DNA of 43,890 nt, from positions 1-43,890 of the forward strand of contig CADBRW010000066.1 of NCBI GenBank assembly GCA_902797155.1. Reading direction: 5' to 3'. Shown here one piece after another: positions 12,621 through 39,242 of the stretch. Below the pieces are notes generated by a model. The model had not been told where the DNA came from and did no database searches. It was given only the letters and a program-made list of their open reading frames with translations. The first letter of the stretch is position 1. Every line of letters begins with the position of its first letter. Source of the DNA: an uncultured Lachnospiraceae bacterium. GTDB taxonomy: Bacteria > Bacillota > Clostridia > Lachnospirales > Lachnospiraceae. A program made the position numbers and the translations under genes.

Positions 12621-13093
12621 AAGAAACAGTGAAAATGATACTGAAACGCGGAGCCGTCAGCTTCGCCCTCTCGGCCATCATCGGACTCCTGGTAAATCTG
12701 ATCGTGGACCTGATCGTGAATTCGGCCGGCAATACCGGCTTCATCTCCATGCCTCCGGAGGCCAGAGCCCTGTTCCCGACACCGGCCATCGCTGCCTATG
12801 TAAATGTACTGCTGTATGGAGCCATCGGTGCCACATTTGCCATGATGACATTCCTCTTTGAGATCGACAGACTTGGATTCCTGATCCAGAGCATCCTGTA
12901 CTTCATCCTGACGGCCATGGTTCTGGCGGCGATCACCGTCTTCCTCTGGCAGCTGCACCGCCATCCTCAGGCCCTGATCCCGACCCTGGCGGGGTACGCC
13001 GTTACTTACTTCATCATGTTTATCACCCAGTACAGGGAGCTGAAGAAGAATATCCGTGAGATCAACCGGGATCTTATGTCTGCCGAGGGGTAG
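12617..13093 (+). CDS. DUF3021-like membrane protein (LytTR partner/inhibitor)
   Basis: Four TMs, C-terminal IREIN..L; ATGA-coupled to the LytTR gene, the usual LytTR-DUF3021 arrangement. Confidence 0.7.
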   Translation: MKETVKMILKRGAVSFALSAIIGLLVNLIVDLIVNSAGNTGFISMPPEARALFPTPAIAAYVNVLLYGAIGATFAMMTFLFEIDRLGFLIQSILYFILTAMVLAAITVFLWQLHRHPQALIPTLAGYAVTYFIMFITQYRELKKNIREINRDLMSAEG

Positions 13094-13099
13094 CAACGC

Positions 13100-13190
13100 C
13101 GACAGTCAAAACATCAGGTGCTTTAAGGCGCGAGCCTGGCCGAGAAAGGTATCTGTGATTGCGGCTAAGCACCTGATGTTTCTCCTGTCG
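13100..13190. other. Intergenic stem-loop (structured leader or repeat element)
   Basis: 15-bp perfect stem AAACATCAGGTGCTT (13109-13123) / AAGCACCTGATGTTT (13167-13181), plus outer CGACAG/CTGTCG pairing. Confidence 0.5.
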
Positions 13191-13210
13191 TCCCCAGTTT
13201 AGGAGAGCAT

Positions 13211-14194
13211 ATGAAAGAAGTGTATACAGCATGCCGCATCTGTCCGAGAAAATGCGGCGTTAACCGAAATGAAAGCACGGGGGCCTGCAGAGTGGGAAGT
13301 ACTCTGCAGGTTTCCCGTGCTGCTTTGCATATGTGGGAGGAACCCTGTATCTCCGGAACAAAAGGCTCCGGAACCGTTTTTTTCTCCGGCTGTAATCTGG
13401 GCTGCGTCTACTGCCAGAATCAGGCCATCAGCCGTGGGAAGGCCGGGAAGCTGATTTCAGCTGACCGCCTTCTGGAAATCTTCTATGAACTGGAAGAGAA
13501 GGGGGCGAACAACATCAATCTGGTAACCGGGGATCACTATCTTCCCACCATAGCCCCGGTTATTGAGCGCGCCAAGACGGAAGGCTTCCGGCTTCCCTTC
13601 CTGCTCAACACCTCCTCCTACATCGAGGTGGATACCCTAAAGCGCATGGAGGGTCTGATCGATATCTACCTTCCCGACTTCAAATACATCCGGGATGAGG
13701 ATGCGCTGCGTTACAGCCGGGCTCCCGGATATCCGGATGTGGCGAAGGCAGCCATCGCCGAAATGGTCCGGCAGCAGCCGGAATGCCGATTTATCTCTGA
13801 GTGTACAGGAACAGATCCTGTGACAGAGGAAAATGTGGCGGAGGAAAAGATGGGAACAGATGATACATCGGTAACGCAGGGAAAGCTCCTTTCCCGCGGT
13901 GTCGTCGTCCGGCATCTCCTCCTTCCGGGCATGCTGATCCAGGCCAAGCTGATCCTCCGCTATCTCTTCGAAACCTATGGGGATCAGATCTATATCAGCC
14001 TGATGAGCCAGTACACCCCGGACCACGAATTGCTGAAGGAACATTTTCCTGAGATCGACAGAAAGGTCACACCCCATGAATACCATAGTCTGATCGAATA
14101 CGCCGCGAAGCTCGGCGTCACAAGAGGATTCATGCAGGAAGGGGAATCCGCCGATGAAAGCTTTATCCCGCCCTTTGATAACGAAGGGGTTTAG
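13211..14194 (+). CDS. Radical SAM protein, PflX family
   Basis: CRICPRKCGVNR, HMWEEPCISG, CNLGCVYC (CxxxCxxC), DIYLPDFKY, VRHLLLPG. Confidence 0.88.
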   Translation: MKEVYTACRICPRKCGVNRNESTGACRVGSTLQVSRAALHMWEEPCISGTKGSGTVFFSGCNLGCVYCQNQAISRGKAGKLISADRLLEIFYELEEKGANNINLVTGDHYLPTIAPVIERAKTEGFRLPFLLNTSSYIEVDTLKRMEGLIDIYLPDFKYIRDEDALRYSRAPGYPDVAKAAIAEMVRQQPECRFISECTGTDPVTEENVAEEKMGTDDTSVTQGKLLSRGVVVRHLLLPGMLIQAKLILRYLFETYGDQIYISLMSQYTPDHELLKEHFPEIDRKVTPHEYHSLIEYAAKLGVTRGFMQEGESADESFIPPFDNEGV

Positions 14195-14217
14195 AGGGGA
14201 TAATATAATATCAATTA

Positions 14218-14247
14218 TTGAAAAAAAAGGCCGATTTTTGCTATAAT
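14218..14247 (+). promoter_or_regulatory. Sigma-A type promoter upstream of the two-component system
   Basis: TTGAAA-N18-TATAAT with extended TG. Confidence 0.5.
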
Positions 14248-14455
14248 CTACTGATAAGCTGGACATGTTATATAATCTTGGTGGTTCAAGCGGTGGGACC
14301 AGACCCAAGATATTGATAAGGGAAAGATATTCAGGATAAGGATCTGATTGAAGTTGGAAAAAACGCAGGGATAAAAGAAAAAAATGCGGAGAAATACTGG
14401 GAGAGATTTGCATTCATCCACGAGTTGATCCTGACCTGGAAAGGGGTATATTAGC

Positions 14456-15079
14456 ATGAAGATAGTGATCGTAGACGACGACAGCCTGGTGGCTGTCTCT
14501 CTGAAAACCATCATAGAAGCGGACGGTGAGACGAAGGTTCTTGCCACGGGAAAGAACGGAGAAGAGGCAGTTGAACTGTACAGGGAGCATAAGCCCGACG
14601 TTCTTCTGATGGACATCCGTATGGAGGGGATGACCGGACTGGAAGCAGGACGGCAGATCCTTCAGGAGGACCCTGCGGCAAGGATCCTCTTCCTGACTAC
14701 CTTCAATGATGATGAATACATCCGGAATGCCCTGGCCATCGGAGCCAAGGGATATATCATCAAGCAGGACTTCGACGGGATCCTTCCGGCTCTCCGGGCG
14801 GTATATGAGGGGCAGTCCGTCTTCGGGGACCAGGTGGTGGACCGGCTTCCGAACCTGCTTTCCGAGGAGAAGAAGGAGTTCTCCTTTGAGGAATACGGTC
14901 TCACTGTCCAGGAGGCGGAGATCGTGGAATGTGTGGCTGACGGGCTCTCCAACCGGGAGATCGCGGAGAAGCTCTTCCTCTCCGAAGGAACGGTGCGGAA
15001 TTATATCAGTACCATTCTCAGCAAGCTGGATCTGAGAGACCGGACCAACCTTGCGATCTTCTATTATAAGAACAAATAA
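14456..15079 (+). CDS. NarL/LuxR family response regulator
   Basis: Receiver VDDD...LMDIRM...K; LuxR HTH GLSNREIAEKLFLSEGTVRNYIS. Confidence 0.93.
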   Translation: MKIVIVDDDSLVAVSLKTIIEADGETKVLATGKNGEEAVELYREHKPDVLLMDIRMEGMTGLEAGRQILQEDPAARILFLTTFNDDEYIRNALAIGAKGYIIKQDFDGILPALRAVYEGQSVFGDQVVDRLPNLLSEEKKEFSFEEYGLTVQEAEIVECVADGLSNREIAEKLFLSEGTVRNYISTILSKLDLRDRTNLAIFYYKNK

Positions 15080-15108
15080 AAGGATCATCAGGGGAGCGGT
15101 AACAGGAA

Positions 15109-16263
15109 ATGGAACGGGCAATCGACAAGTGCATATTGTGCATCTGCACGGTGTATGTGCTCGGACAGAGTATGTTCGGGACGACCCGGATCGTGTCGGT
15201 CTATCTGACACTGGCGGCTGCGGCTGCCCTGATCTGGCTGCTTCCTGCAGACCCAGCGGGACAGAAGATGGGTCGTGGTGGCAATATCCGCCTGACCACT
15301 GCCTTCATCCTCATGGATGTGGCTGCAGCTTTGGTCCTGTTCAATGCGGATTTCTTCTGGCTGCTCCCGCTTCTGGTGTATGACATGCTGTACGGCAGGA
15401 ACTGGCCGGGCCTTATCATTTCGGGCCTGGCGTATGTGAATGCCATCATACTGTCTGTAAATAAGGGGAACCCGGAGGGATTGCTCCTGGGCATCACATC
15501 GGTGCTTATCTTCCTTGCGGTGTGGCTCGCTGCGAAAACCATCCGATTGGCCGAGGCCCAGCGTCAGGTGAAGAAAATGCGGGACGATGACGAAGAGCAG
15601 CGGCAGCAGCTGAATCGTCAGAATGAACAGCTACTGGAGGCAAGGGACAGTGAGGTGGTGACTGCCCAGCTGGCAGAGCGAAACAGGATCGCCAGGGAGA
15701 TCCATGACAATGTGGGACACACCCTGTCCCGTGCCCTTCTGCAGGTGGGTGCGCTGCTGGCCATCCATAAGGAGGAACCGGTGCATACGGAGCTTACCGG
15801 TGTCAGGGAGACTCTGGACAGTGCCATGACCAGCATCCGCTCCAGCGTTCATGATCTTCATGATTCTTCGGTGAATCTGGAGGGAACCGTCCGTCAGATC
15901 GCGGAACCCCTGCAGACAGCATTTCATGTGTCCATAGAGATCGATGCATCCGAGGATATGCCCCGGGAGAAGAAATACGGGATCATCGGGATCCTGAGAG
16001 AGGCGGTCTCCAATATCCTGAGACACAGCCTGAATGACAGCGTGCTGATCAGCATCCTGGAGCATCCGGGCTTCTATCAGCTGGTAGTCCATGATTACCT
16101 TTCTTCGGATGGGACACTGCGTAACGAACCTGTTACGGGACGGGAATCCTCCGGTTCCGGTATCGGTGTTACGAATATGGAAAGCCGTGCCCGCTCCCTG
16201 GGAGGGACGGTCCGGATCACGGAGGACAGCGGCTACCGCGTCTTCGTCAGCATACCCAAATGA
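15109..16263 (+). CDS. Membrane sensor histidine kinase (HisKA_3 type)
   Basis: ERNRIAREIHDNVGH H-box, EAVSNILRH N-box, GIG..NM..R G-box; N-terminal TMs. Confidence 0.92.
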   Translation: MERAIDKCILCICTVYVLGQSMFGTTRIVSVYLTLAAAAALIWLLPADPAGQKMGRGGNIRLTTAFILMDVAAALVLFNADFFWLLPLLVYDMLYGRNWPGLIISGLAYVNAIILSVNKGNPEGLLLGITSVLIFLAVWLAAKTIRLAEAQRQVKKMRDDDEEQRQQLNRQNEQLLEARDSEVVTAQLAERNRIAREIHDNVGHTLSRALLQVGALLAIHKEEPVHTELTGVRETLDSAMTSIRSSVHDLHDSSVNLEGTVRQIAEPLQTAFHVSIEIDASEDMPREKKYGIIGILREAVSNILRHSLNDSVLISILEHPGFYQLVVHDYLSSDGTLRNEPVTGRESSGSGIGVTNMESRARSLGGTVRITEDSGYRVFVSIPK

Positions 16264-16295
16264 TTCATCCGGTGGGTGTTTTTCTCGGAAATACG

Positions 16296-16304
16296 TGCTA
16301 TAAT
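16296..16304 (+). promoter_or_regulatory. Extended -10 promoter for the GGDEF-DHH-TIR operon
   Basis: TGcTATAAT about 40 nt upstream of the GTG start. Confidence 0.55.
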
Positions 16305-16342
16305 AGAAATGTTGCAGATTTCTTTTTTGGGGAGGAAACCTG

Positions 16343-17503
16343 GTGATCAGTTATTACACAACTATCATACTGCTATCCTTGATGTCCCTGGGGATTCTCT
16401 GCATTCTGGTCAAGGAGAACGGCCGTCTTTCCGAAAAGGAAAAGAAAATGTTCTACCTGACCTACGGCCTGATCGCGCTTTCCGCCTTCGCTGAGTGGAA
16501 CGGAATTCAGATGAACGGAAAGGCGGGTATTCCGAAATGGCCGATCCTGGTGATCAAATGCTGCGATTATATTCTGACGCCCATCGCCGGCGGGATCTTC
16601 GCAGGGCAGATGCGGATCCGAAATATCTGGACCCGGATCCTGGCCTTTCTTCTGGTTCTCAATACCGTATTTCAGATCATTTCCCTGTTTACAGGCTGGA
16701 TGGTGACGGTTGATGATAATCATTATTATCAGCATGGTCCCATGTATTCATGGTACGTGGGCGTGTATGTCCTCGTCATCATCATTATCATGATCCAGTT
16801 TATCCTCTACGGAAAAAAATTTCGAAGACAGAACAAATTCTCTCTGTATGCCATAGCCTTGCTGGTGGTTGTGGGGATTCTGATTCAGGAGCTTCTGGGA
16901 TCCGAATTCCGAACCGCCTACATCGCTCTGACTCTTGGAGCCATCCTGATGTTCATCCACACCTCGGAATTCTCCCAGCTTGCCTCTGACGATTTTATCC
17001 AGGAGCAGCAAGTGGCCATCACGACGGATGCCCTGACCGGGGTATTCAGCCGGTATGCCTATTCCAAGACCCTGGAGGAATTGGATGATCAGGGGGTTCC
17101 TGAGGATTTTGTGGCATATTCCATCGATATCAATGAGTTAAAGACCGTGAATGATACCCTGGGACATGAAGCGGGAGACGAGCTGATCCGCGGAGCGGCA
17201 GACTGCATCCGGCGTGTCTTCGGGGAGGAAGGAAAATGTTACCGTACAGGTGGAGATGAGTTCGTGGTGATCGGAACCATGAGCAAGGAGAAGGTGGACG
17301 AGGCCATGCTCCGAATGGAGCAGGAACTGAATGCCTGGACAGGAGAGAAGGTTAAGGAGCTGCGGTTGGCTGTGGGGTATGCCGTCGCCTCCGATTATGA
17401 AGGTCTTTCCGCGGAGAAGCTGGTGGCTGAAGCGGATATGGCCATGTACGAGGCAAAGACCGCATATTATCAGTCTGTGGGCAAGGACAGGAGAAGGCAA
17501 TAA
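16343..17503 (+). CDS. Membrane-bound diguanylate cyclase (~7 TM + GGDEF)
   Basis: GGAGG RBS with GTG start; DALTG, DINELKTVNDTLGH..GD, RTGGDEF, ADMAMYEAK. Confidence 0.9.
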   Translation: MISYYTTIILLSLMSLGILCILVKENGRLSEKEKKMFYLTYGLIALSAFAEWNGIQMNGKAGIPKWPILVIKCCDYILTPIAGGIFAGQMRIRNIWTRILAFLLVLNTVFQIISLFTGWMVTVDDNHYYQHGPMYSWYVGVYVLVIIIIMIQFILYGKKFRRQNKFSLYAIALLVVVGILIQELLGSEFRTAYIALTLGAILMFIHTSEFSQLASDDFIQEQQVAITTDALTGVFSRYAYSKTLEELDDQGVPEDFVAYSIDINELKTVNDTLGHEAGDELIRGAADCIRRVFGEEGKCYRTGGDEFVVIGTMSKEKVDEAMLRMEQELNAWTGEKVKELRLAVGYAVASDYEGLSAEKLVAEADMAMYEAKTAYYQSVGKDRRRQ

Positions 17504-17516
17504 AGGGGTTTAGTTT

Positions 17517-19028
17517 ATGAAACTACATGAATTACTTGCATATAACGATATCGTGATCCAGTGTCATGACAATCCGGACGCGGATGCGCTGGCCTCCGGC
17601 TATGCGCTGTGGTGGTATTTTAAACAGATGGGGAAGACCGCCCGTTTTATCTACCGCGGAAGAACTGCCGTGAACAAGAGTAACCTTCGGATCATGATGG
17701 AGCGTCTGGATATCCCGGTATCCTTTGAACCGGACTTCATGTCGGTACCGGAGCTTCTGGTCACGGTGGACTGTCAGTACGGCGAGAGAAATGTGACGCG
17801 GACCGACGCAGACGTGATCGCCGTCATCGATCATCATCAGGTGACCAGGGAGCTGCCCGAGCTGTCCGAGGTGCGGAGCGGTATCGGCAGCTGTGCTACG
17901 ATCATCTGGGATATGCTCCGGGAGGAGGGCTTCTCTCTGGACGAGGAGAAGAATCTCTCCACGGCCCTCTATTACGGCCTCTACACAGATACCAACCGTC
18001 TGTCCGAGGTTTCCCATCCTCTGGACAGGGATATGAGAGACAGCCTGCTGGTGAACCGAAGCGTGATCACTGAGATGAGCAATTCCAACATTTCCCTGGA
18101 TGAGCTGACCATTACGGGACATGCCATCACGGGGTATGAGTACCACCCGGAGGAGCGGTTCGTGATCCTCAGGACGGAGCCCTGCGATCCCAACATCCTG
18201 GGCGTGATCAGCGATTTCGTAATGGAGACGGATGGGATCGACGCAAGCCTTGCCTATTACGTAAGTCCCTTTGAGGTGAAGCTTTCCGTAAGGAGCTGTG
18301 TAAAGGAGATCCATGCGGATGAGCTGGCGGCCTTCCTGACAGATGGCATCGGAGGCGGAGGCGGCCACATCCTCAAGGCAGGAGGGACCATCCGGCCGGA
18401 GCTTCTGGACGAGCTGGCTTCGAAAAATGAAGATACCTATACCCTGGCGGATCGTATCCTGCTGGAACGAATGAAGGAATACTTCTCCCTGTACAAGGTG
18501 ATGTATGCCAGGGAGACCACCCTGGATCCGGAGGGACTTCGGCTTTATGAGAAGCAGCCACAGGAGCTGGGCTGCGTGAAGCTGACGGATCTGTTCCCGG
18601 CGGGAACCAGAGTGGAGATCCGTACACTGGAGGGAGATGTGGAGATCTTTGTGAAGGAAGAACTTTTCCTCATGGTGGGTCTGGAAGGAGAGGTTTATCC
18701 CATTACAAAGGAGAAGCTGGAGAAGAGCTATACGCGTACAGGGAAACCCTACAGCCGGGAGTTCGAGTACGATCCTACACTGAAGGATACCGTAACGGGG
18801 GAACGGAAGGGAGTTCTAAAGTACGCCATGGGAGTGATCAGCTCCGGCGGTTCACGGATCCTGGCCGGGAAGCTGGATCATTACGTGAAGCTGTTTACGG
18901 CATGGGATGAGGAGAAATACTATTCCGGAAATCCCGGTGACTATATCGCCTGTCGTGAGGATGATCCCCATGATATCTACATCATCCGCGGCAGACTGTT
19001 TCACCGACTCTACAAAGAGATACAGTAG
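17517..19028 (+). CDS. DHH/DHHA1 phosphoesterase with a C-terminal extension of two PGDYG-like repeats
   Basis: HDNPDADA, VTVD, IDHH, GLYTDT, GGGGH..KAGG; C-terminal IRTLEGD...GLEGEVYPI...EKSY and GNPGDYI...IYII...FHRLY. Confidence 0.85.
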   Translation: MKLHELLAYNDIVIQCHDNPDADALASGYALWWYFKQMGKTARFIYRGRTAVNKSNLRIMMERLDIPVSFEPDFMSVPELLVTVDCQYGERNVTRTDADVIAVIDHHQVTRELPELSEVRSGIGSCATIIWDMLREEGFSLDEEKNLSTALYYGLYTDTNRLSEVSHPLDRDMRDSLLVNRSVITEMSNSNISLDELTITGHAITGYEYHPEERFVILRTEPCDPNILGVISDFVMETDGIDASLAYYVSPFEVKLSVRSCVKEIHADELAAFLTDGIGGGGGHILKAGGTIRPELLDELASKNEDTYTLADRILLERMKEYFSLYKVMYARETTLDPEGLRLYEKQPQELGCVKLTDLFPAGTRVEIRTLEGDVEIFVKEELFLMVGLEGEVYPITKEKLEKSYTRTGKPYSREFEYDPTLKDTVTGERKGVLKYAMGVISSGGSRILAGKLDHYVKLFTAWDEEKYYSGNPGDYIACREDDPHDIYIIRGRLFHRLYKEIQ

Positions 19029-19037
19029 GAGGCCTTA

Positions 19038-22000
19038 ATGATAGAGCATTACAACGCATTTATTTCATACCGTCACGCGGAGAAGGATATCAAGGTCGCA
19101 AAGGCGATCCAGAATGATCTGGAACATTTCCATATCCCGGGAAAGATAAAGAAAAGCACCGGAATGAAATCCATCAACCGGATCTTTCTGGATAAGGACG
19201 AGCTGGGCACTGCAAGTGACCTCTCCACGGAGATCGCCTTTGCTCTGGAGCACGCAGACTATCTGATCGTTATCTGCTCCACGGCCACAAAGGAGTCACG
19301 CTGGGTTCCCCGGGAGATCGAGTATTTCCTCAGGAATCATACCAGAAAGCAGATCACCACGGTACTGGTGGACGGGGAGCCGGAGGACGTGATCCCGGAT
19401 ATCCTGAAGTACGAGGACCGTACCTATATGAACGAGAACGGACAGCCCTACACGGTCCGTGTCCCGCTGGAGCCCCTTTCCTGTGATTATCGTCTGTCCC
19501 ATAAGAAGGCGAAGAAGGAAGAACTGCCCCGGCTTGCATCCGCACTGCTGGGATGCTCCTACGATGAACTGATGAACCGCCGCAGACAGTACAAGGTTCG
19601 CCGGCTTACGGCGATCTTTGCGGGCGTCATGGCCGTTGCCGTGGCCTTTGCCGCCTATTTGCTGTACAGTAAGGGGCAGATCCGTGACAACTATGACAAG
19701 GCACTCCGTAATCAGTCCAAATATCTGGCGTATGAATCCATGTCGGCGGATGAAGATGAGCAGCGGATCCTGGCGATTCAGCTGGCTCTGGCCGCATTGC
19801 CAAAGGATAAAGAGGATTCACGCCCCGTCACGCCCCAGGCCATCCGTGCTCTGGTGGATTCCACCTTGTCCTATTCCCCGCGCCGCAACGATACCGTGGT
19901 TGCCACCTGGAATTATGACATGCCTAACAGTATCTCAGATTTCAAGATTGACAGCACAGGAAGAACTCTGGCGGCCATGGATGCCAATGGAAATGTGTCA
20001 GTCTGGAATGCAGGTGATCATTCTGTGATCCTGTCCCTGACGTCCCAGACGGATTCGGCGGATAATATTGCCTTTCTGAATGATTCGATCCTTTTGGTGC
20101 AGAGCCAAAGGACGCTGTTTGCCTACCGGATCCCGGAAGGATCCCAGCTCTGGAAATATGAGAGTGAGGATATGATCACATACTCGAATACCTTTGAACC
20201 GTGGACGGACGGACATGTTTCGGTCTATAACGGCGAGCATAAGGTAATGAAGCTCCGGGTCCAGGATGGTTCCGTAGCGGAGTCCTGTGAATTCACCACG
20301 TCCAATGACCTGATCTCGGATGTTCATGTTTCTCCGGACGGAACTAAAATTGCTTATATTAAGGGTAATTTCGAGGATTCCACCGCCATTTGCGTATTTA
20401 ATATCAAGGACAAGACCACGAAGGAGATGAAGGTCGATGCTCAAAGGGTCAGAAATCTCTACTGGGCGGATGATAAGCACCTGATGGCCGCCTATCCCAC
20501 GGGAGAGGATAGTGGCAGCATGGCAGTGCTGGGGATCTCCTATCTGAAGACGGACTACAGTAAGATCCTCTGTATTGATCCGGATGCCATGACAGCAGTG
20601 TGGAGTAAGGATTTTGACTGTACGGACGTCCTCATCAACAGTGATTTCATGGCACTTCCAAAGACGGAATCCATTGCGTACTACTCAGGAAATCATGCGG
20701 TCATGTACGGGATCAGTGACGGCTCTGTTGTAGCGGATCATCACGTGAATTCGCCTATTGTGAGCATCAGTGACTATGACGGAAACGGCTGGCCGCTGTA
20801 TGTATGCTACAACGGGTCCATTGCCATGCCGACGACAAAGGTGATCGCCAAGGTGCAGCCGTGTATGATCAACAAGGTTTCACAGGCAGCTGTAGGAAAC
20901 GGAGTCTTTGTACGGTCATCCAACTCTTCCCAGATCATTCATTATCAGACAAATGTATATGATAATGAGTGGATGGAGATCACAAAGGGAAAGGAACTCA
21001 GTTACTTCTATAACTGTATGCTTCTGGACGACGGGGTTCTGGCCATGGTAAGTGAGGAAGAGGCGGAGGAGTTTCCGAAGATCGCAAAGGGGATCTCCGG
21101 CAAGTTTGATATGCTCACTTTGATCAACCCCATGACCGGTGAACTGCGGTACCAGATGCCGCTTACGAAAGAAAACGGAGAGAGATATTCCATCGGAAAC
21201 TTCCAGCTGATCGGTTCGGCAGGTGATTTCTTCTATCTCGGACGTACTGACTATGACGAGGGCCAGTATGTACTGTTTTCGGTTAATCTCGGTACGGGAG
21301 AGCTGACAAGAAAGAATCTGTTCCAGACCACCGTACCTGCTGAGAACAGTGTACGGGTGCAGAACGGAAAGCTGATCTATACGGAAGAAAAGGATTACCG
21401 GCGGACAGTATATGTATATGACCTGGCAACAGGTACATCCCAATCGGTCCTGATCTCCGAGGATAAGTTGGTTGGCGGCTCCTATACAACGCCGTTTTAC
21501 TTCTCCGGTGCAGACAAGGTTTACTTTACGAACAGTGAAGGGGACTGGATCATAGATATGAATGAAAAGAAGAGTCTGGAGGTGATCCTTTCCGAGAGCT
21601 GGGAGAAAACAAAGCTGGTGGCGTATGATGCGGGAAATGACAGATTTGCCATTACAGACGGAATCAGTATCCGCTTTGTGGAGAGTGACGGAAGATGTGA
21701 GATCTCCTTCCGCTGTCCAGGTGCGGTGCCCATCGGAATGACATACTATACGCCGAAGAACAAGGAAGAAGGGACCATGCTGCTGGTGGCTTTCAGTAAT
21801 GGGGTCCTGAACAGGTATGATGCGGCAAGCGGAGACTTCATTGGAAAGACAACTCTTACCTGCATGAATTCGGATGCTCAGGAGGCGAAGTTTGATTTCT
21901 CTTCCTCAGATCAAAAGTTCTATGTAGAGGTTTCAGGCATCACGGATGTCTTCGATCTGGAATCCTGGACCGAGGAGACCAGTGTCCAGAATTCCATCGG

Positions 22001-22178
22001 ACATCACAGACTCACCGATCGCTTCTATACCTATGCGATCGTAGATGATAAGTATTCCGTCGGATATTTCAGACATTACACCGTAGACGAGCTCATCGGG
22101 AAGGCGAAGGATATTCTGAAGGGAGCGGAGATGTCCGAAGAGGTAAAGTCCCAGTACGGAATCGAGGATACGCCGTAG
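19038..22178 (+). CDS. TIR domain - single TM - beta-propeller (WD40/PQQ-like) protein
   Basis: YNAFISYRH, IFLD, LIVICS...SRWVPREI (putative catalytic Glu93); hydrophobic helix at about 19605-19667; about 800 aa of beta-rich repeats (GNVSVWN, VSPDGTKIAY, VYVYDLATG). Confidence 0.85.
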   Translation: MIEHYNAFISYRHAEKDIKVAKAIQNDLEHFHIPGKIKKSTGMKSINRIFLDKDELGTASDLSTEIAFALEHADYLIVICSTATKESRWVPREIEYFLRNHTRKQITTVLVDGEPEDVIPDILKYEDRTYMNENGQPYTVRVPLEPLSCDYRLSHKKAKKEELPRLASALLGCSYDELMNRRRQYKVRRLTAIFAGVMAVAVAFAAYLLYSKGQIRDNYDKALRNQSKYLAYESMSADEDEQRILAIQLALAALPKDKEDSRPVTPQAIRALVDSTLSYSPRRNDTVVATWNYDMPNSISDFKIDSTGRTLAAMDANGNVSVWNAGDHSVILSLTSQTDSADNIAFLNDSILLVQSQRTLFAYRIPEGSQLWKYESEDMITYSNTFEPWTDGHVSVYNGEHKVMKLRVQDGSVAESCEFTTSNDLISDVHVSPDGTKIAYIKGNFEDSTAICVFNIKDKTTKEMKVDAQRVRNLYWADDKHLMAAYPTGEDSGSMAVLGISYLKTDYSKILCIDPDAMTAVWSKDFDCTDVLINSDFMALPKTESIAYYSGNHAVMYGISDGSVVADHHVNSPIVSISDYDGNGWPLYVCYNGSIAMPTTKVIAKVQPCMINKVSQAAVGNGVFVRSSNSSQIIHYQTNVYDNEWMEITKGKELSYFYNCMLLDDGVLAMVSEEEAEEFPKIAKGISGKFDMLTLINPMTGELRYQMPLTKENGERYSIGNFQLIGSAGDFFYLGRTDYDEGQYVLFSVNLGTGELTRKNLFQTTVPAENSVRVQNGKLIYTEEKDYRRTVYVYDLATGTSQSVLISEDKLVGGSYTTPFYFSGADKVYFTNSEGDWIIDMNEKKSLEVILSESWEKTKLVAYDAGNDRFAITDGISIRFVESDGRCEISFRCPGAVPIGMTYYTPKNKEEGTMLLVAFSNGVLNRYDAASGDFIGKTTLTCMNSDAQEAKFDFSSSDQKFYVEVSGITDVFDLESWTEETSVQNSIGHHRLTDRFYTYAIVDDKYSVGYFRHYTVDELIGKAKDILKGAEMSEEVKSQYGIEDTP

Positions 22179-22277
22179 GAATTGAAAAAATGTTTGTATA
22201 AAGCTATGTTTTATGATAAACTGACTCCGTCTGCAAAGAAATAGAAGGGTTGGGAAAAAGGAAAAACAGCTTTGGAT

Positions 22278-23297
22278 ATGAAGAAAAAGGCCCTCTGGGC
22301 GGTAGTCTCCCTGCTTCTTGCGGTGTTTACCATATGGTTTATGGTATACCGGAGCGGAATGTCGGTCAGCGACTTCCTGCACTCTCTGGCACACGCAAAT
22401 GTATGGTGGCTTCTGATGGGCGGCCTCTGTATGTTCAGTTTCATATTTTTTGAAGGAGTATCCCTGCTTCAGATCGTCCGTACCTGCGGATATCCGCAGA
22501 AGGTGAGAAGAGGCTTCCTCTATTCTGCGGGAGATACCTACTTTTCGGCAATCACACCCTCCGGAACCGGCGGTCAGCCTGCCATCATTTTCTTTATGAT
22601 GCAGGACAAGATCCCGGGAGCAGTCATTACGGCCACACTGGTGATCAACTTTATTGCCTTTAATGTGGGTCTGCTCTTCTCCGGAATCATGGGTTTCATT
22701 CTTGCGCCGGGAGTGTTCTTCCGATACAGTACGGTGTGCAGGGTCTTCATCATTGCGGGTTTCCTTGTTTTCCTGGTGCTCCTTATCCTGGGAATACTGA
22801 TGATCCGAAAGAGAGAGTTTATCTTCCGGATCGCCATGAAGGTGATCGCTTTCTTCCACAAGATCCATATCGTCAAGAAGCCGGAACGCCTTTACAAAAA
22901 GCTTGAAAAGGTTATGGAAGAATACAAGACCTGTGTGGGCGTGGTGGCAGGCCATAAGGGAATGTGGTTCAGGGCCTGTCTTATGAATATCCTGCAGAGG
23001 TTTGCGCAGATCGCGGTTACGGTCTTTGCCTTCCGTGCTCTGGGAGGAGCGGGGCCGGTTCGGGAGCTTTTTGCAACCCAGTGCTTTGCAACCATCGGAG
23101 CAACCTGTATCCCCATTCCGGGAGCCATCGGAATCTCCGATTACCTGATGATCGAAGGGTATCTGAATCTGATGCCGCAGGAATTTGCATATCAGGTACA
23201 GATGCTGAGCAGAGGAATCTCATTTTACTGTTGTATCATAGTGAGCGGGATCACGATGATGATCGGGCTCATGGCGATAGGGAGACGTAAGAAATGA
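22278..23297 (+). CDS. Lysylphosphatidylglycerol synthase TM / flippase-like (UPF0104) membrane protein
   Basis: FSAITPSGTGGQP, IPIPGAIGISD, RGISFY motifs. Confidence 0.85.
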   Translation: MKKKALWAVVSLLLAVFTIWFMVYRSGMSVSDFLHSLAHANVWWLLMGGLCMFSFIFFEGVSLLQIVRTCGYPQKVRRGFLYSAGDTYFSAITPSGTGGQPAIIFFMMQDKIPGAVITATLVINFIAFNVGLLFSGIMGFILAPGVFFRYSTVCRVFIIAGFLVFLVLLILGILMIRKREFIFRIAMKVIAFFHKIHIVKKPERLYKKLEKVMEEYKTCVGVVAGHKGMWFRACLMNILQRFAQIAVTVFAFRALGGAGPVRELFATQCFATIGATCIPIPGAIGISDYLMIEGYLNLMPQEFAYQVQMLSRGISFYCCIIVSGITMMIGLMAIGRRKK

Positions 23298-23995
23298 TAG
23301 GTGTATTTGATTATACGGTCATACTGACCTACTTATCTGCAATATCCGCGGTGCTGGGAATCGTGATTTCCCTTTACGGAACGGGACACCCCTATATCGG
23401 GGCTTTCTTCCTTCTGTTCTGCGGACTGTGCGATGCCTTTGACGGAAAGGTGGCACGCAAGAAGAAGAACCGTACGGATTTTGAGAAGAGCTTCGGTATT
23501 CAGATCGATTCGCTGGCGGATCTTATCTCCTTCGGAGTGCTTCCGGCAGCCATCGGTATCGGGCTGGTACGTGCCAGCTCCAAATATCTGGAAATGCCGG
23601 TGCTTCATCCGGAGGACCGCGACAGAGCGATCCTGTATCCGATCCTCTTTCTCGTGATCATTTCCTTCTATGTGCTGACGGCACTGATACGTCTGGCCTA
23701 TTTCAATGTTACGGAAGAAGAGCGTTCCCGTACGGAGGGCGGGGTACGGAAGACCTATATCGGTCTGCCTGTTACCTCTTCGGCACTGATCTTCCCTACC
23801 GTTCTGCTGATCCGTTTTGTGACACGTGTGGATTTCACTCCCATCTACTTCTCTGTAATGCTGGTGACCGCGTTCCTGTTTATCTCCAGGATCCGGATCG
23901 CAAAGGCAGGCATGCGGGGGATTCTGATCATGATCGGAATCGGTTGTATTGAGTTTGGGATCATGTTGTATTTCCTCTTGACCAGAGGTATGTGA
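23294..23995 (+). CDS. pssA: CDP-diacylglycerol--serine O-phosphatidyltransferase
   Basis: DAFDGKVAR...G..IDSLADLISFG CDP-alcohol transferase motif; RLAYFN; GLPVT; adjacent to psd. Confidence 0.85.
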   Translation: MIGVFDYTVILTYLSAISAVLGIVISLYGTGHPYIGAFFLLFCGLCDAFDGKVARKKKNRTDFEKSFGIQIDSLADLISFGVLPAAIGIGLVRASSKYLEMPVLHPEDRDRAILYPILFLVIISFYVLTALIRLAYFNVTEEERSRTEGGVRKTYIGLPVTSSALIFPTVLLIRFVTRVDFTPIYFSVMLVTAFLFISRIRIAKAGMRGILIMIGIGCIEFGIMLYFLLTRGM

Positions 23996-24002
23996 GGATA
24001 CT

Positions 24003-24818
24003 ATGGATTTATTACATTTTCTGTATGATACAGCGCCCGGAAGGGCGCTGCTCGTGCCCCTTAGCAGCAGGACGTTGTCGAAGCTCTGTGGGGCATTTTT
24101 GGACTGCAGGCTGTCAAAGCCATTGATCAAAGGGTTTATCCGTAAGGCGGACATCGATCCGGAGGAATATGTGATGGACGGGTTCACCTGCTTCAATGAC
24201 TGCTTCTCGCGTCACGTGAAGGAGGGGCTCCGGCCTGTGGAGCAGGATCCGGAGATCATGGTGGCACCCAGTGACGGACTTCTTTCCGTATGGAGAATCG
24301 AAGAGGATACCGTGCTGCCCCTGAAGCAGAGCAGCTATACGGTACGCAGTCTGCTGAGGGACAGCAAGCTGGCAAAGCGGTATCAGGGCGGACTGTGCCT
24401 GGTCTACCGGCTTTGCGTGAATCATTATCATCGCTATGGATATGTGGAAAGCGGAAGAAAATCTGCCAACCGGTTTATCCCGGGAGCACTGCATACAGTT
24501 CGCCCGGTTGCGCTGGAGGCACGCCCGGTTTTCATTGAAAACTGCAGGGAGTATACCTGTATTAAGACAAAACGGTTCGGCGTTCTGACACAGATGGAGA
24601 TCGGTGCCATGCTGGTGGGAAAGATCGCAAATCACGAGACCGGATGTGCTGAGGTGGAAAGAGGCGCGGAGAAGGGCACTTTCCTCTATGGCGGATCTAC
24701 CATCGTAGTTTTGGTTGAGCCCGGAAAGGTCCTGGTGGATCCGGAGATCCTGATGGCTTCCGAACACGGAGAAGAGACGCCGGTACGTTACGGACAGAGG
24801 GTTGGCAAAGCCCGGTAA
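24003..24818 (+). CDS. psd: Phosphatidylserine decarboxylase
   Basis: FNDCFSR, APSDG, RLCVNHYHR, EIGAMLVGKI, GGST autocleavage motif. Confidence 0.9.
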   Translation: MDLLHFLYDTAPGRALLVPLSSRTLSKLCGAFLDCRLSKPLIKGFIRKADIDPEEYVMDGFTCFNDCFSRHVKEGLRPVEQDPEIMVAPSDGLLSVWRIEEDTVLPLKQSSYTVRSLLRDSKLAKRYQGGLCLVYRLCVNHYHRYGYVESGRKSANRFIPGALHTVRPVALEARPVFIENCREYTCIKTKRFGVLTQMEIGAMLVGKIANHETGCAEVERGAEKGTFLYGGSTIVVLVEPGKVLVDPEILMASEHGEETPVRYGQRVGKAR

Positions 24819-26507
24819 ATGAAGATGGAGAAGAAGGAAGAACAACTGAATACGGAAGAAACTCTGCAGGAGCAGGAGGAAGAGAAGGACGGCGCAGAGA
24901 AGAGGGCTGTGGACGGCGCAGAGAAGAAGACTGAGGAGAAATCGGAAAAGAACACTCGTGCCGCAAGAAAGAAAGAGCGGAAGAAGGCTGTGGAGGGCCA
25001 GCCGGTGAAGATCTGGAAGATCGTTGTCATCCTGGTGCTTTTATTCCTCGTTACATTTTTCACGGCCGCTGTTCTGTGGGCTCTCTATACCTGGAGTCTG
25101 CTGACCATGGATGAGTTGCTCTGGCATCTGAAGGTTTCCATGAAGGGAACGAACATGGACATGGTCTGGGAATTCCTGCTGGTTACGCTGGGAAGCTCCG
25201 TTCTCATTACGGGAATCGTGGGATTCTTCCTGATAAGAAGCAGGAGGAAGAAGCGTCCCGGGAAGAAGACCTGGAGATTCAGTCTGGGGATCACGGTGGG
25301 AATCTTCGTGATCGGAGTCGTTGCCGCATGGAACGGCTTCAGCATCGGATCCTTCCTGAAGAATTATATGACGGTGTCCTCGTTTATCGAGGATGAGTAT
25401 GTGGATCCCGGTTCGGTAAAGGTCACATTTCCGGAGAAGAAGAGAAATGTGATCGTGATCTATCTGGAATCCATGGAGCTGACTTACATGGATGAAGCCC
25501 ATGGCGGTGCATTTCCGGAGAATATCATTCCGGATCTTACGGTGCTGGGCACGGAATACGAGGATTTCTCCGGTTATTCCGGAACCAGAAACGGCGGTAT
25601 CGCACTGCCGGGAGCGGTATGGACCATGGGCGCCATGTTTGCCACCTCCTCGGGACTGCCGCTGAAGACACCTCTCGGTCAGAACGGTATGTCTGCCAAC
25701 GATGACTTCCTTCCGGGAATCGTTACCTTCGGGGATATCCTGGAGAAGGAGGGGTATAAGAACCGGCTGCTCATCGGGTCGGATGCCACCTTCGGCGGAC
25801 GGAGACTGTATTACGAGAGTCACGGCAATTATGAGATCCATGATTATGAGTATGCCAAGGAGGTGGGCAGGATCCCGAAGGACTACAAGGTCTGGTGGGG
25901 ATATGAGGATCAGAAGCTCTTCGATTATGCGAAGGAGGAACTGCAGGAGCTGTCAAAGGGGGATCAGCCCTTTAACCTCTCCATCCTGACGGTGGATACC
26001 CATTTCGAGGACGGTCATTACTGCCCGCATTGTACCAGAAAATTCGGAAGCAACAAGTACGCGAATATCATGGACTGCTCGTCCACCATGGTCTATAATT
26101 TTGTCCGGTGGATCCAGAAGCAGGACTTCTATGAGAATACCACCATTATCATTACGGGAGACCATCCCACCATGGACCGGGATTTCTGCGATGATGTTCC
26201 GGAGACCTATCTGAGAAAGACCTTTACCGCCATCATTAATCCGGCGGCACAAACGGCGGACCGGTCCAGAAGAAGAGAATTCTCAACATTTGATCTCTTC
26301 CCCACGACACTGGCGGCCATGGGTGTGACCATCGAGGGTGAGAAGCTGGGACTTGGGACGAACCTGTTCTCGGATCAGGATACACTGATCGAGCAGTACG
26401 GTCTTGCGAAGGTGGAAGAAGACATCAGTGCACGTTCGAAGCTGATGGAACGAATGTATAAGGGGACTTACATCAGTCCCGGTGAAGGTAAGAAAGAGGA
26501 AGAATAA
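24819..26507 (+). CDS. LTA synthase / phosphoglycerol transferase (sulfatase-fold) membrane protein
   Basis: RNVIVIYLESME, WTMGA, TVDTH, GDH motifs; N-terminal TMs. Confidence 0.85.
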   Translation: MKMEKKEEQLNTEETLQEQEEEKDGAEKRAVDGAEKKTEEKSEKNTRAARKKERKKAVEGQPVKIWKIVVILVLLFLVTFFTAAVLWALYTWSLLTMDELLWHLKVSMKGTNMDMVWEFLLVTLGSSVLITGIVGFFLIRSRRKKRPGKKTWRFSLGITVGIFVIGVVAAWNGFSIGSFLKNYMTVSSFIEDEYVDPGSVKVTFPEKKRNVIVIYLESMELTYMDEAHGGAFPENIIPDLTVLGTEYEDFSGYSGTRNGGIALPGAVWTMGAMFATSSGLPLKTPLGQNGMSANDDFLPGIVTFGDILEKEGYKNRLLIGSDATFGGRRLYYESHGNYEIHDYEYAKEVGRIPKDYKVWWGYEDQKLFDYAKEELQELSKGDQPFNLSILTVDTHFEDGHYCPHCTRKFGSNKYANIMDCSSTMVYNFVRWIQKQDFYENTTIIITGDHPTMDRDFCDDVPETYLRKTFTAIINPAAQTADRSRRREFSTFDLFPTTLAAMGVTIEGEKLGLGTNLFSDQDTLIEQYGLAKVEEDISARSKLMERMYKGTYISPGEGKKEEE

Positions 26508-26519
26508 GGAGGAAGCAAA

Positions 26520-27245
26520 GTGGAGACGAAGAAGCTTGCAGCAGAACTTGGAGCAACGACCTATCCGGGCCGCGGCATCGTGATCGGCCGTACGCCGGAC
26601 GGGAAGAAGGCGGTATGTGCATATTTTATCATGGGACGGTCCGAGAACAGTCGGAACCGTGTCTTTGTAACCGAGGGTGAGGGCATCCGCACCGAGGCCT
26701 TTGATCCGGCCAAGCTGGAGGATCCGAGCCTTATCATCTATGCTCCGGTACGGGTACTGAAGGGAAATATCATTGTGACCAACGGTGATCAGACGGATAC
26801 CATTTTCGACGGACTGTCTGCAGGGAAGACCTTTGAGGAGTCTCTGAGAAGCCGTGAGTTTGAGCCGGATGGCCCCAATTATACACCGCGGATCTCCGGA
26901 TGGATGAAGTTCGGAGAGGATGCACCGAAGGGGTACTGCTACGATATGTCCATCCTGAAGTCCAACAACGGGGATCCTTCCCAGTGCAACCGTTATACCT
27001 TCAGCTATGACAATCCGAAGGCAGGAGAGGGACATTTTATCCACACCTATATGGGAGACGGAAATCCGCTGCCGAGCTATGAGGGTGAGCCCACACCGGT
27101 GGAGATTCCGGATGCGGACATCGATACCTTCACGGATCTGGTATGGAATGCCATCGATGCGGACAATAAGGTGTCGCTCTTTACCCGCTTTGTGGATATC
27201 GAGAGTGGTGCGGTAGAGACCCGGATCGTGAATAAGAATCAATAA
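26520..27245 (+). CDS. Stand-alone IMP cyclohydrolase (PurO-like)
   Basis: YPGRGI, YFIMGRSENSRNR, TNGDQTD, EPD.PNYTPRISG; directly upstream of the AICAR transformylase. Confidence 0.85.
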   Translation: METKKLAAELGATTYPGRGIVIGRTPDGKKAVCAYFIMGRSENSRNRVFVTEGEGIRTEAFDPAKLEDPSLIIYAPVRVLKGNIIVTNGDQTDTIFDGLSAGKTFEESLRSREFEPDGPNYTPRISGWMKFGEDAPKGYCYDMSILKSNNGDPSQCNRYTFSYDNPKAGEGHFIHTYMGDGNPLPSYEGEPTPVEIPDADIDTFTDLVWNAIDADNKVSLFTRFVDIESGAVETRIVNKNQ

Positions 27246-27286
27246 CGCATGTGAAAGTCGATACAATGGAAAGGTAGGAATCAAGG

Positions 27287-28465
27287 ATGAACGAATTCGA
27301 ATTGAAATATGGCTGTAACCCGAATCAGAAGCCGTCGAAGGTATATATGAAGGACGGAAGTGACCTGCCCATCACGGTAGTGAACGGCCGGCCGGGCTAT
27401 ATCAACCTGTTGGATGCACTGAACGGCTGGCAGCTGGTAAAGGAGCTGAAGAAGGCCACAAACCTTCCGGCAGCAACCAGCTTCAAGCATGTATCTCCGG
27501 CCGGTGCGGCTGTGGGACTTCCCCTTACCGACATTGAGAAGAAGATCTACTGGGTAGAGGATCTGGGAGAGCTGTCTCCGCTGGCATCCGCCTATGCACG
27601 GGCCCGTGGCGCAGACCGTATGTCCTCCTTCGGTGACTTCATCGCCCTTTCGGATGTGTGCGACAAGGATACGGCGCGCCTCATCAAGCGTGAGGTCAGC
27701 GATGGTGTGGTAGCACCCGGATATACGGACGAGGCTCTCGAGCTGCTCCGTCAGAAGAAGAACGGTAATTACTGTGTGATCCGGATCGACCCGGAGTATG
27801 TACCGGCACCCATTGAGACCAAGGATGTCTATGGCGTTACATTTGAACAGGGAAGAAATGAGCTGAAGATCGACGATGAGCTGTTCAGCAACATTGTTAC
27901 AGATACGAAGGAGCTTCCGGAGTCTGCTAAGATCGATCTTGCCATCGCCATGATCACTCTGAAGTATACCCAGTCCAATTCGGTATGCTATGTAAAGGGC
28001 GGTGCAGCCATCGGTATCGGTGCAGGACAGCAGTCCAGAATTCACTGTACCAGACTGGCAGGCGACAAGGCGGACAAGTGGTTCCTCCGTCAGTCACCCC
28101 AGGTTCTGAACCTGCCCTTCAAGGCAGATATCCGCAGAGCGGACCGTGACAATACCATCGATGTTTACATCAGCGATGATTATGAGGATGTGATCGGTGA
28201 CGGTGAGTGGCAGAAGTTCTTTACAGAGCAGCCGGCAGTGTTCACCAGAGAAGAGCGCAAGGCATGGCTTGCGAAGAATACGGATGTGGCGCTTGGCTCC
28301 GATGCATTCTTCCCCTTCGGGGACAATGTGGAGCGTGCGAACCGCAGCGGCGTGCGTTATATCGCCCAGCCCGGCGGATCCATCCGCGATGACAATGTGA
28401 TCGAGACCTGCAATAAATACGGCATCGTGATGTGCTTCACAGGCATCCGTCTGTTCCATCACTAA
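27287..28465 (+). CDS. purH: AICAR transformylase (PurH formyltransferase domain only)
   Basis: [45 protein letters not shown]; lacks the N-terminal IMPCH/MGS domain. Confidence 0.9.
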
Positions 28466-28481
28466 GCCACGTTGCTACTAC

Positions 28482-28547
28482 GGGGTCAGACCCCATTACA
28501 AAACTGTTACATGGATACGTAACAATTTTGTAATGGGGTCTGACCCC
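28482..28547. repeat. 66-bp palindromic element, family A copy 3
   Basis: Identical to copy 2 except 4 of the 6 loop bases (TGGATA vs TTTTAA); between convergent genes. Confidence 0.9.
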
Positions 28548-28551
28548 GTTT

Positions 28552-28932
28552 TTACACTTCGGGATGCAGGGCTTCGTGCTCGGCCTTGATGTGCAGGTAG
28601 GCGTAGGCGGCAGCCCAGTTCCGGCTGGTTTCCGTCATGACGGCCTTCAGAGGGAAGCTGCATTTCTCGTAGGATTTCAGAGCGTCGATGATGAGACCCA
28701 GCTTGGCATCGGGGATGCCGGCAAAGATCATGAGGGGCGTGTCGAATTCCGGTCCGTCATAGGGGAGGGGAAGCTCCTTCATGGGATGCAGACCGGCAAG
28801 GGATGCCAGGGTGCGGTTGTACTTGGGCTTTTCCACATAGATGATCTGGACCTTCATGGGGGTCAGAAGATTGCGGATGTCGTTCCGGATGCTCTTGTCC
28901 GGGAGGGCGAAGAGGAGGAGGGTTTCTTTCAT
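28552..28932 (-). CDS. DUF3783-like hypothetical protein
   Basis: KAVMTET..NW...L..EH C-terminal pattern; AAAGGA RBS. Confidence 0.7.
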   Translation of the reverse strand: MKETLLLFALPDKSIRNDIRNLLTPMKVQIIYVEKPKYNRTLASLAGLHPMKELPLPYDGPEFDTPLMIFAGIPDAKLGLIIDALKSYEKCSFPLKAVMTETSRNWAAAYAYLHIKAEHEALHPEV

Positions 28933-29004
28933 GGACAGTATTCCTTTCAAAAGTGCGGTGCTTATGGTTGCGATGATCGCGGCGAGCCCTGCTTCGCAGG
29001 TTCA

Positions 29005-29059: not shown

Positions 29060-29085
29060 CGACTGCAAATAGTGCCCTGGTTTCG

Positions 29086-39206: not shown

Positions 39207-39242
39207 GTGGAAAGGGCGAAAAAAGAGAAAGGAGGAACCGCC

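What the first reader, a model, noticed from the sequence alone, without database searches (positions are those of the whole stretch)
16296..22178. Candidate new nucleotide-signalling system: GGDEF cyclase + DHH-(PGDYG-like)x2 phosphoesterase + TIR-TM-beta-propeller
Seen: three co-oriented genes behind their own extended -10 promoter, separated by only 13 and 9 nt, all with intact catalytic motifs (GGDEF; DxD/DHH/GGGH; TIR Glu93). The cyclase has no RxxD inhibitory site. Established: GGDEF makes c-di-GMP; DHH/DHHA1 enzymes hydrolyse cyclic or linear dinucleotides; bacterial TIR domains are NAD+-cleaving effectors or signal producers in Thoeris, CBASS and Pycsar, and TIR-STING is activated by c-di-GMP. 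Inference: this writer/eraser/effector layout matches no system I recognise. It may be a membrane-sensing second-messenger circuit for defence or envelope signalling. Chance adjacency is possible because GGDEF genes are numerous in such genomes.
Basis: partly seen in the sequence, partly recalled or inferred. Interest (0 to 1): 0.8.

Follow-up and report, generated by a model that had tools for sequence, protein, structure and literature searches.

The report
Membrane TIR receptor with PGDYG phosphoesterase
A membrane-spanning TIR (immune-type) receptor gene and a nucleotide-cutting enzyme carrying an uncharacterised PGDYG domain stay side by side across many gut and rumen bacteria and likely form an undescribed signalling pair, while the neighbouring c-di-GMP cyclase is likely only a local passenger.

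Summary
The three genes, 13/9-nt gaps, extended -10 and catalytic motifs are real, but the three-gene writer/eraser/effector system is not supported. The orthologous cyclase sits beside the DHH gene in 1 of 24 genus relatives, and no other locus examined repeats the co-oriented trio.

The conserved unit has two genes: TIR-TM-beta-propeller plus DHH-DHHA1-PGDYG. A TIR gene is adjacent in 23 of 24 genus loci (20 tail-to-tail), within 5 kb in 16 of 28 family loci, and adjacent in 10 of 19 loci from other families. It is near 0 of 38 sister DHH genes lacking PGDYG. The link follows PGDYG: this domain stays near TIR when DHH catalysis is lost (5 of 5 cyclase loci), occurs in a TIR-DHH-PGDYG fusion, is fused to SLATT, and its single unit is fused to Acb4 and Acb2/Tad1 sponges.

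Best model (0.5): the receptor's TIR likely makes an NAD-derived signal that PGDYG binds to control the phosphoesterase. Ligand, substrate and role (defence or physiology) are untested. No description was found in print; this scan noted the same pair before on other DNA.

The parts
16266..16288 (+). Weak terminator-like hairpin after the upstream histidine-kinase gene
   Evidence: 5-bp stem plus T run; 12 such sites found against 6.9 in shuffles, so weak
16296..16304 (+). Extended -10 promoter-like element (TGnTATAAT)
   Evidence: A similar element precedes the cyclase in G202 and directly precedes the DHH gene in G211, which lacks the cyclase there. Function untested.
16343..17503 (+). Membrane diguanylate cyclase (at least 5 TM plus GGDEF, no RxxD); likely a passenger, not part of the conserved module
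   Evidence: linkage tests
17517..18473 (+). DHH + DHHA1 phosphoesterase (aa 1-319) of the NrnA/GdpP/TmPDE fold; D21, D23, D85, D105-H106-H107 and D158 invariant
   Evidence: dN/dS 0.07
18474..19028 (+). PGDYG-family domain (two half-repeats, SH3-like barrels); predicted signal-binding module
   Evidence: fusions
19038..19592 (+). Cytoplasmic TIR domain with invariant F8-I9-S10-Y11, D52, W89 and catalytic-position E93 (codon 19314-19316)
   Evidence: dN/dS 0.05
19605..19661 (+). Single TM helix (aa 190-208) after a basic patch; N-in/C-out topology inferred
   Evidence: sequence
19905..22178 (+). Fast-evolving beta-propeller region, predicted extracytoplasmic sensor
   Evidence: 46-49% identity where TIR is 91%; dN/dS about 0.17-0.27

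Best explanation
The TIR-TM-propeller gene and the DHH-PGDYG gene form a conserved two-gene module in which the membrane receptor likely senses an outside ligand, its TIR domain likely converts NAD+ into an ADP-ribose-derived signal, and the PGDYG domain is predicted to bind that signal and control the attached DHH phosphoesterase. Shown: the architectures, intact catalytic residues, purifying selection, the TIR-PGDYG linkage and the lack of cyclase linkage. From family knowledge (recalled; passages in PMC7159879 and PMC7824862): TIR domains with this Glu cleave NAD+, and DHH-DHHA1 enzymes cut small phosphodiesters such as pAp, pApA, pGpG and cyclic nucleotides. Inferred: topology, receptor activation, signal binding by PGDYG, and the direction of control. 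The cyclase is likely an intact passenger that shares the promoter in this strain. Whether the output serves phage defence or ordinary envelope sensing is open; I lean about 55:45 to non-abortive signalling.
For: Linkage: TIR adjacent in 23 of 24 genus loci, the 24th at a contig end. TIR within 5 kb in 16 of 28 family loci against 0.2 expected, and in 0 of 38 PGDYG-less sister DHH loci, 19 of which are in genomes that have a TIR. Adjacent in 62 of 77 scored top GTDB loci in four arrangements and in 10 of 19 loci from other clostridial families. Partner TIRs differ in architecture (propeller, NPCBM, DUF6273, YvyF-like), and propeller-type TIRs form a separate supported branch. PGDYG keeps a TIR within 5 kb in 5 of 5 adenylate/guanylate-cyclase loci where the DHH catalytic domain is gone. 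Fusions: TIR-DHH-PGDYG (P0149; 7 members of 684-699 aa in a 14-member cluster), PGDYG with class III cyclase, GGDEF, HAD and SLATT3-SLATT1. The single unit is fused to Acb4 (2 proteins) and Acb2/Tad1 (1) among 55 longer homologues. Fusion to Acb4/Tad2 is how the Sequestin sponges were found (10.1101/2025.07.12.664507, passages).
Against: No ligand, pocket or activity was shown, and PGDYG has no solved relative. 12 of 28 family loci and 9 of 19 loci in other families have no TIR nearby, and 7 of the 27 family genomes had no TIR_2 hit at all, so the enzyme can stand without the receptor. TIR-propeller genes also occur without the DHH gene (the G000 paralogue on C14 and other loci). Sponge fusions are few (3 of 55); most phage fusions seen were to DUF1642 (29 of 30 scanned), and small phage modules fuse promiscuously. 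Most loci are related by descent and several were counted in more than one sample, so the counts are not independent.
Confidence: 0.5

Rival explanations
1. The DHH-PGDYG protein is the off-switch: PGDYG captures the TIR-made signal and DHH hydrolyses it, while the real effector is encoded elsewhere.
For: DHH enzymes erase second messengers (PMC7824862 passages; NrN-type erasers recalled). The pair has no toxic effector, and independent transcription of convergent genes suits a constitutive eraser.
Against: PGDYG stays beside TIR after DHH catalysis is lost and is joined to outputs (cyclase, GGDEF, HAD, SLATT), which suits a reader better than an eraser. No third conserved gene was seen in the loci examined.
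Confidence: 0.2
2. Coupling is physical: the activated TIR binds the DHHA1-PGDYG part and recruits the enzyme to the membrane, with no diffusible signal.
For: A natural TIR-DHH-PGDYG fusion exists, and TIR domains also act as scaffolds (recalled).
Against: Partner TIRs come from divergent branches. E93 is invariant in 78 of 78 paired TIRs. Sponge fusions point to a small-molecule ligand.
Confidence: 0.12
3. One reading: the cyclase writes c-di-GMP, the DHH enzyme erases it or pGpG, and the TIR is the effector, as one three-gene system.
For: Tight co-oriented spacing here; cyclase-DHH adjacency is kept in one relative. Elsewhere in the family a catalytically degenerate DHH-PGDYG is fused to GGDEF (P0049), and a GAF-GGDEF gene precedes the TIR/cyclase/PGDYG operon in 4 of 5 loci. 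GGDEF/EAL genes lie within 3 genes of 7 of 28 family loci, against about 11% by chance.
Against: The orthologous cyclase is adjacent in 1 of 24 genus loci and 0 of 77 GTDB loci. The genome has 36 GGDEF/EAL genes among 1841 ORFs. Several of the 7 family cases share one guaB/purH/glnS synteny block. No c-di-GMP receptor domain was detected.
Confidence: 0.08
4. The TIR-DHH pairing is inherited synteny with no functional link.
For: The loci are related, and tail-to-tail pairs can persist passively.
Against: Four gene arrangements, many different flanks, several TIR architectures, a fusion, and 0 of 38 in the control.
Confidence: 0.07

Closest known systems
Thoeris (ThsB TIR + ThsA with SLOG or Macro signal-binding domain)
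   Same: A TIR with the catalytic Glu (Pfam ThsB_TIR E 5e-9) beside a protein with an enzyme plus a putative signal-binding domain.
   Different: The TIR is a 1046-aa single-pass receptor with a propeller. The partner is a DHH phosphoesterase with PGDYG, not SIR2-SLOG or TM-Macro. The pair is often convergent, present in 24 of 24 genus genomes, and sits among housekeeping genes.
Stand-alone DHH-DHHA1 phosphodiesterases (NrnA, Rv2837c, TmPDE TM1595, GdpP catalytic domain)
   Same: Same fold (Foldseek E 1e-19 to 1e-18 for 5xsi, 5o25, 5cet) and intact metal-binding motifs.
   Different: About 20% identity, below the NCBIfam NrnA cut-off, with an added PGDYG domain and TIR linkage. Substrate unknown.
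Pfam PF14083 PGDYG and the small phage proteins of phrog_419-type families
   Same: Profile match to PGDYG 97%; a phage single unit matches both halves (95% and 90%).
   Different: A divergent, longer version attached to an enzyme. No function in print was found for either.
Phage sponges Acb4, Acb2/Tad1, Tad2, Sequestin, Lockin
   Same: The single PGDYG-like unit is fused to Acb4 and Acb2/Tad1 domains.
   Different: No sequence or fold match to any solved sponge was listed; binding is untested.
TIR-STING CBASS (c-di-GMP activated)
   Same: A TIR with a c-di-GMP synthase next door at this one locus.
   Different: No STING domain and no CD-NTase; the GGDEF neighbour is not conserved.

Membership tests
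Thoeris | ThsB-like TIR with catalytic glutamate | tested here: met
   Pfam ThsB_TIR 36.9 bits (cut-off 21.2); E93 invariant and aligned to the Roq1 WCLEE motif
Thoeris | Adjacent ThsA-type effector (SIR2-SLOG, TM-Macro or other named Ths/Thc effector) | tested here: not met
   PADLOC and NCBIfam gave no such hit for the cyclase, DHH or flanking proteins, nor did Pfam over 37 window ORFs
Thoeris | Phage-induced cADPR-type signal and protection | not testable with these tools
   needs an experiment
CBASS TIR-STING / Pycsar | CD-NTase or PycC cyclase plus a STING, SAVED or CNBD sensor fused to the effector | tested here: not met
   The cyclase is GGDEF. The TIR protein has only TIR, TM and propeller matches; the PADLOC SAVED_TIR hit covers only the TIR part, E 0.004
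DHH-DHHA1 phosphoesterase superfamily | DxD, D, DHH and D motifs plus DHHA1 GGGH, and the fold | tested here: met
NrnA/GdpP orthologue | Score above the curated equivalog cut-off; PAS and degenerate GGDEF for GdpP | tested here: not met
   NrnA model 21.5 bits against a cut-off of 350; no PAS or GGDEF domain in the protein
NrnA/GdpP orthologue | Hydrolysis of pAp, pApA, pGpG or c-di-NMP | not testable with these tools
   needs an assay
PGDYG (PF14083) | Profile similarity to the PGDYG domain | tested here: met
   hhalign 97%, E 1e-10 over 127 columns. Below the Pfam cut-off as a single sequence, so a divergent member.
Known phage sponge folds | Fold or sequence match to a solved sponge | tested here: inconclusive
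   No Foldseek match at E<=0.001, best VIA Z 4.5 (SH3-like), no PDB sequence hit
Conserved three-gene c-di-GMP system | Cyclase co-conserved with the DHH and TIR genes | tested here: not met

The most novel reading that the evidence does not exclude
PGDYG is an unrecognised receptor fold for a TIR-made nucleotide signal. Bacteria use it to wire Toll-like membrane TIR receptors to phosphoesterase, cyclase and SLATT outputs, and phages carry the single unit as a large undiscovered sponge family. This would be a bacterial transmembrane TIR signalling pathway with non-lethal outputs.
Probability: 0.35. Interest if true: 0.88.

Novelty: new variant of a known kind. Interest (0 to 1): 0.68.

Why it matters
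The bacterial TIR systems I know of from the literature (recalled) are mostly cytoplasmic phage sensors that trigger cell death. A single-pass TIR receptor with a fast-evolving outside domain, kept as a near-core gene in rumen Lachnospiraceae and tied to a non-toxic enzyme, would extend TIR signalling to receptor-type transmembrane sensing in bacteria. It also gives a directly testable function for an orphan domain (PGDYG) and for a family of small phage proteins. Both are small, soluble and can be screened against known TIR products.

Tried and rejected
1. Three-gene system: rejected.
2. Complex prediction of the TIR domain with full DHH-PGDYG: no answer, score 0.09 against a mark of 0.32; not used as evidence.
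3. Fold and sequence searches of the PGDYG domain against the PDB: no clear match, best Z 4.5 to SH3-like barrels. This does not show a new fold.
4. Search for fusions of 882 aa or more: none among 371 candidates (weak evidence).
5. The ESM Atlas returned no result.
6. RNA runs: no RNA holder listed; co-transcription untested.
7. Rfam over 13000-30000: no match.
8. Viral-contig scan with P0113: nothing.
9. PF14083 itself was found in 2 of 301 phylum genomes.
10. Positive selection on the propeller was not shown: average dN/dS 0.17-0.27 with dS near saturation.
11. Rows dropped before counts: 3 of 80 GTDB loci where my ORF caller missed the DHH gene; L103, missed but scored by coordinates in the 23 of 24; two contig-edge fragments (G163, G178) and the weak E>1e-13 NrnA/GdpP-like hits; of the 27 class matches, 20 were fetched (all 19 outside the family plus one inside).
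12. Literature: 'PGDYG' gave 9 unrelated plant papers; 'PF14083' 0; 'phrog_419' 0. TIR+DHH combinations gave only general papers or other systems, and one search gave only eukaryotic TLR papers.
Full report
OBSERVATION. The three ORFs, gaps of 13 and 9 nt, the extended -10 at 16296 and all quoted motifs are present. The window is contig C66 of a 75.6% complete genome. Its closest named relatives are rumen Lachnospiraceae/Eubacterium MAGs. GC content of the three genes (0.50-0.54) matches the genome (0.52). The flanks are a two-component pair upstream and phospholipid and purine genes downstream. PADLOC matched only the TIR part of the three proteins, weakly.

THE CYCLASE IS NOT PART OF THE CONSERVED UNIT. 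All 24 genus genomes sampled carry the DHH fusion. Orthologues of the cyclase's membrane domain were found in 5 of these 24. Only G202 has one beside the DHH gene; the other four lie on other contigs, with no DHH or TIR gene in the 7-12 kb fetched. In G202 the TIR gene is inverted and a long hairpin separates the two stops. The closest relative, G211 (85% identical DHH), has kinase-DHH-TIR with no cyclase, and an extended -10 directly before the DHH gene. Any GGDEF/EAL gene is adjacent in 2 of 23 genus, 3 of 28 family, 2 of 77 GTDB and 0 of 19 other-family loci. This genome has 36 such genes among 1841 ORFs, so chance adjacency is about 4%. Within three genes the family figure is 7 of 28, above the 11% expected, but several of these share one guaB/purH/glnS block. 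No locus examined repeats the co-oriented trio. The cyclase is under purifying selection against its G202 orthologue, so it is likely a working enzyme that shares a promoter here.

THE TIR-DHH LINK IS REAL AND FOLLOWS THE PGDYG DOMAIN. In the genus a TIR-propeller gene is adjacent in 23 of 24 loci: 20 convergent, 3 co-oriented, 1 unscorable at a contig end. In 200 family genomes, one per genus, 28 fusion loci were found. Sixteen have a TIR within 5 kb, against 0.2 expected; 13 are propeller type and 3 have other architectures. The control is the sister DHH subfamily without the C-terminal domain: 0 of 38 have a TIR within 5 kb, although 19 lie in TIR-bearing genomes. Among the top 80 GTDB loci, 62 of 77 scored have an adjacent TIR: 38 convergent, 14 TIR-then-DHH, 9 DHH-then-TIR, 1 divergent. 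This set overlaps the genus set and is biased to close kin. In other clostridial families the figure is 10 of 19. Against this, 12 of 28 family loci have no TIR nearby, and TIR-propeller genes also occur alone, including a paralogue in this genome. A second system strengthens the link: in 5 of 5 loci, a degenerate DHHA1 plus PGDYG, with no DHH catalytic domain, follows a TIR-YvyF-like gene and a receiver-class III cyclase gene, and is fused to the cyclase in one. A tree puts the 14 propeller TIRs on one supported branch (98/92), apart from the other partner TIRs, whose own relationships are weakly resolved.

WHAT THE C-TERMINAL DOMAIN IS. AlphaFold models are confident (pLDDT 91 full length, 95 for the domain). 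The N-terminal part matches GdpP, TmPDE and Rv2837c. The C-terminal part has no clear solved relative and gives only SH3-like partial matches, but it matches uncharacterised viral proteins and PHROG families 419, 4502, 1810 and 36774. It is a divergent PGDYG domain of two half-repeats. A profile search found 577 representative proteins at E<=0.001, and I scanned 38 of the top 150 with Pfam. They include DHH-PGDYG with a second, canonical PGDYG (one is named Desulfovibrio), nine class III cyclase fusions, a HAD fusion, a degenerate DHH-PGDYG-GGDEF, and one TIR-DHH-PGDYG fusion whose cluster has 7 members of 684-699 aa. Following a lead from an earlier scan note, I tested the phage link. A roughly 80-aa phage unit matches both halves (hhalign 95% and 90%). 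In Lactobacillus-type phages it is stand-alone or fused to DUF1642. Among 55 longer homologues, 2 are fused to Acb4 (PF13876), 1 to Acb2/Tad1, 1 to MazG, and one PGDYG domain is fused to SLATT3-SLATT1. This supports a signal-binding role but is modest: 'often fused to sponges' was not reproduced, only 3 of 55.

RECEPTOR. The TIR keeps E93 in 78 of 78 paired sequences. One TM follows a basic patch and no N-terminal hydrophobic segment was found, so the propeller likely faces outside (inference). Against the two closest relatives the TIR is 91% identical, DHH 85-86%, PGDYG 81-83% and the propeller only 46-49%. dN/dS is 0.05-0.11 for the first three and about 0.17-0.27 for the propeller, with dS near saturation. 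This fits a conserved signalling core with a variable sensor; it does not show positive selection.

MECHANISM. Most likely (0.5): ligand binding outside clusters the receptor, the TIR makes an NAD-derived signal, PGDYG binds it, and the DHH enzyme's activity on small phosphodiesters changes. Every step after the architecture is inferred. Rivals: eraser (0.2), direct protein coupling (0.12), three-gene c-di-GMP circuit (0.08), passive synteny (0.07). For defence: TIR chemistry, a variable sensor, and sponge and SLATT fusions. For physiology: presence in 24 of 24 genus genomes, housekeeping neighbours, no toxic effector, and cyclase-type outputs.

COMPARISON AND NOVELTY. It likely works like Thoeris (TIR signal, binding domain, enzyme) but fails membership, and it is not CBASS, Pycsar or an NrnA/GdpP orthologue. 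Searches for PGDYG, PF14083, phrog_419 and TIR+DHH combinations found no description; the library lacks most subscription journals. Papers seen: 10.1101/2025.07.12.664507 (passages; Acb4 is PF13876, and fusion led to Sequestin), PMC7824862, PMC7159879 and 10.64898/2026.10.19.760177 (passages; none of the passages describes this pair), 10.1101/2024.12.30.630793 and PMC10118264 (search listing and start of abstract only). No supplements were read. The closed bioRxiv tables of candidate sponges, and domain lists in the comparative-genomics papers, could already include this domain. Five earlier notes of this scan report the same TIR plus DHH-PGDYG pair on other DNA. I had reached the two-gene reading before seeing them, and they are not independent support.

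VERDICT. Observation confirmed; three-gene interpretation not supported; an undescribed two-gene TIR receptor/DHH-PGDYG module is well supported by genomic context, with an untested mechanism. Interest 0.68.

Noticed in passing
L066-L070 (G100, G018, G169, G099, G159): Conserved operon: GAF-GGDEF (sometimes with a TIM-barrel domain), TIR-YvyF-like, receiver-class III cyclase, degenerate DHHA1-PGDYG (fused to the cyclase in L067). The cyclase has Glu at the position where, from recall, adenylyl cyclases have Lys, so it may make cGMP or a pyrimidine nucleotide; its C-terminal part looks PilZ-like by eye (no Pfam hit). Worth its own study.
   Followed up: partly
P0192: SLATT_3-SLATT_1-PGDYG fusion: a membrane effector joined to PGDYG, single-member cluster.
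   Followed up: partly
P0202, P0204, P0206; L268-L334: Small phage unit related to each PGDYG half; stand-alone, or fused to DUF1642, Acb4, Acb2/Tad1 or MazG. Candidate sponge family.
   Followed up: partly
P0049, P0137: Degenerate DHH-PGDYG fused to GGDEF (a cluster member is named Ruminococcus sp.), and DHH-PGDYG fused to a HAD phosphatase (314-member cluster).
   Followed up: partly
L060:9833-13072 (G000 contig C14): Second TIR-TM-propeller gene in this genome, without a DHH neighbour; next to an NMT1-like binding protein.
   Followed up: partly
window 39207-41996: Band-7/SPFH, NAD-kinase-like and NrtR-like Nudix regulator genes in a row: an NAD/ADP-ribose-linked cluster 17 kb from the TIR gene.
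   Followed up: no
window 42055-43751: Two overlapping ORFs with no Pfam or NCBIfam hit; the first has a HipA-kinase-like motif by eye, so possibly a HipA-type pair.
   Followed up: no
G104, G156, G123, G181, G151: Several family genomes carry 4-7 TIR genes, some clustered (three within about 11 kb on G181 C9; four on G075 C61).
   Followed up: no
L102:7620-7750: Long near-perfect inverted repeat between the convergent DHH and TIR stops, a likely bidirectional terminator.
   Followed up: partly
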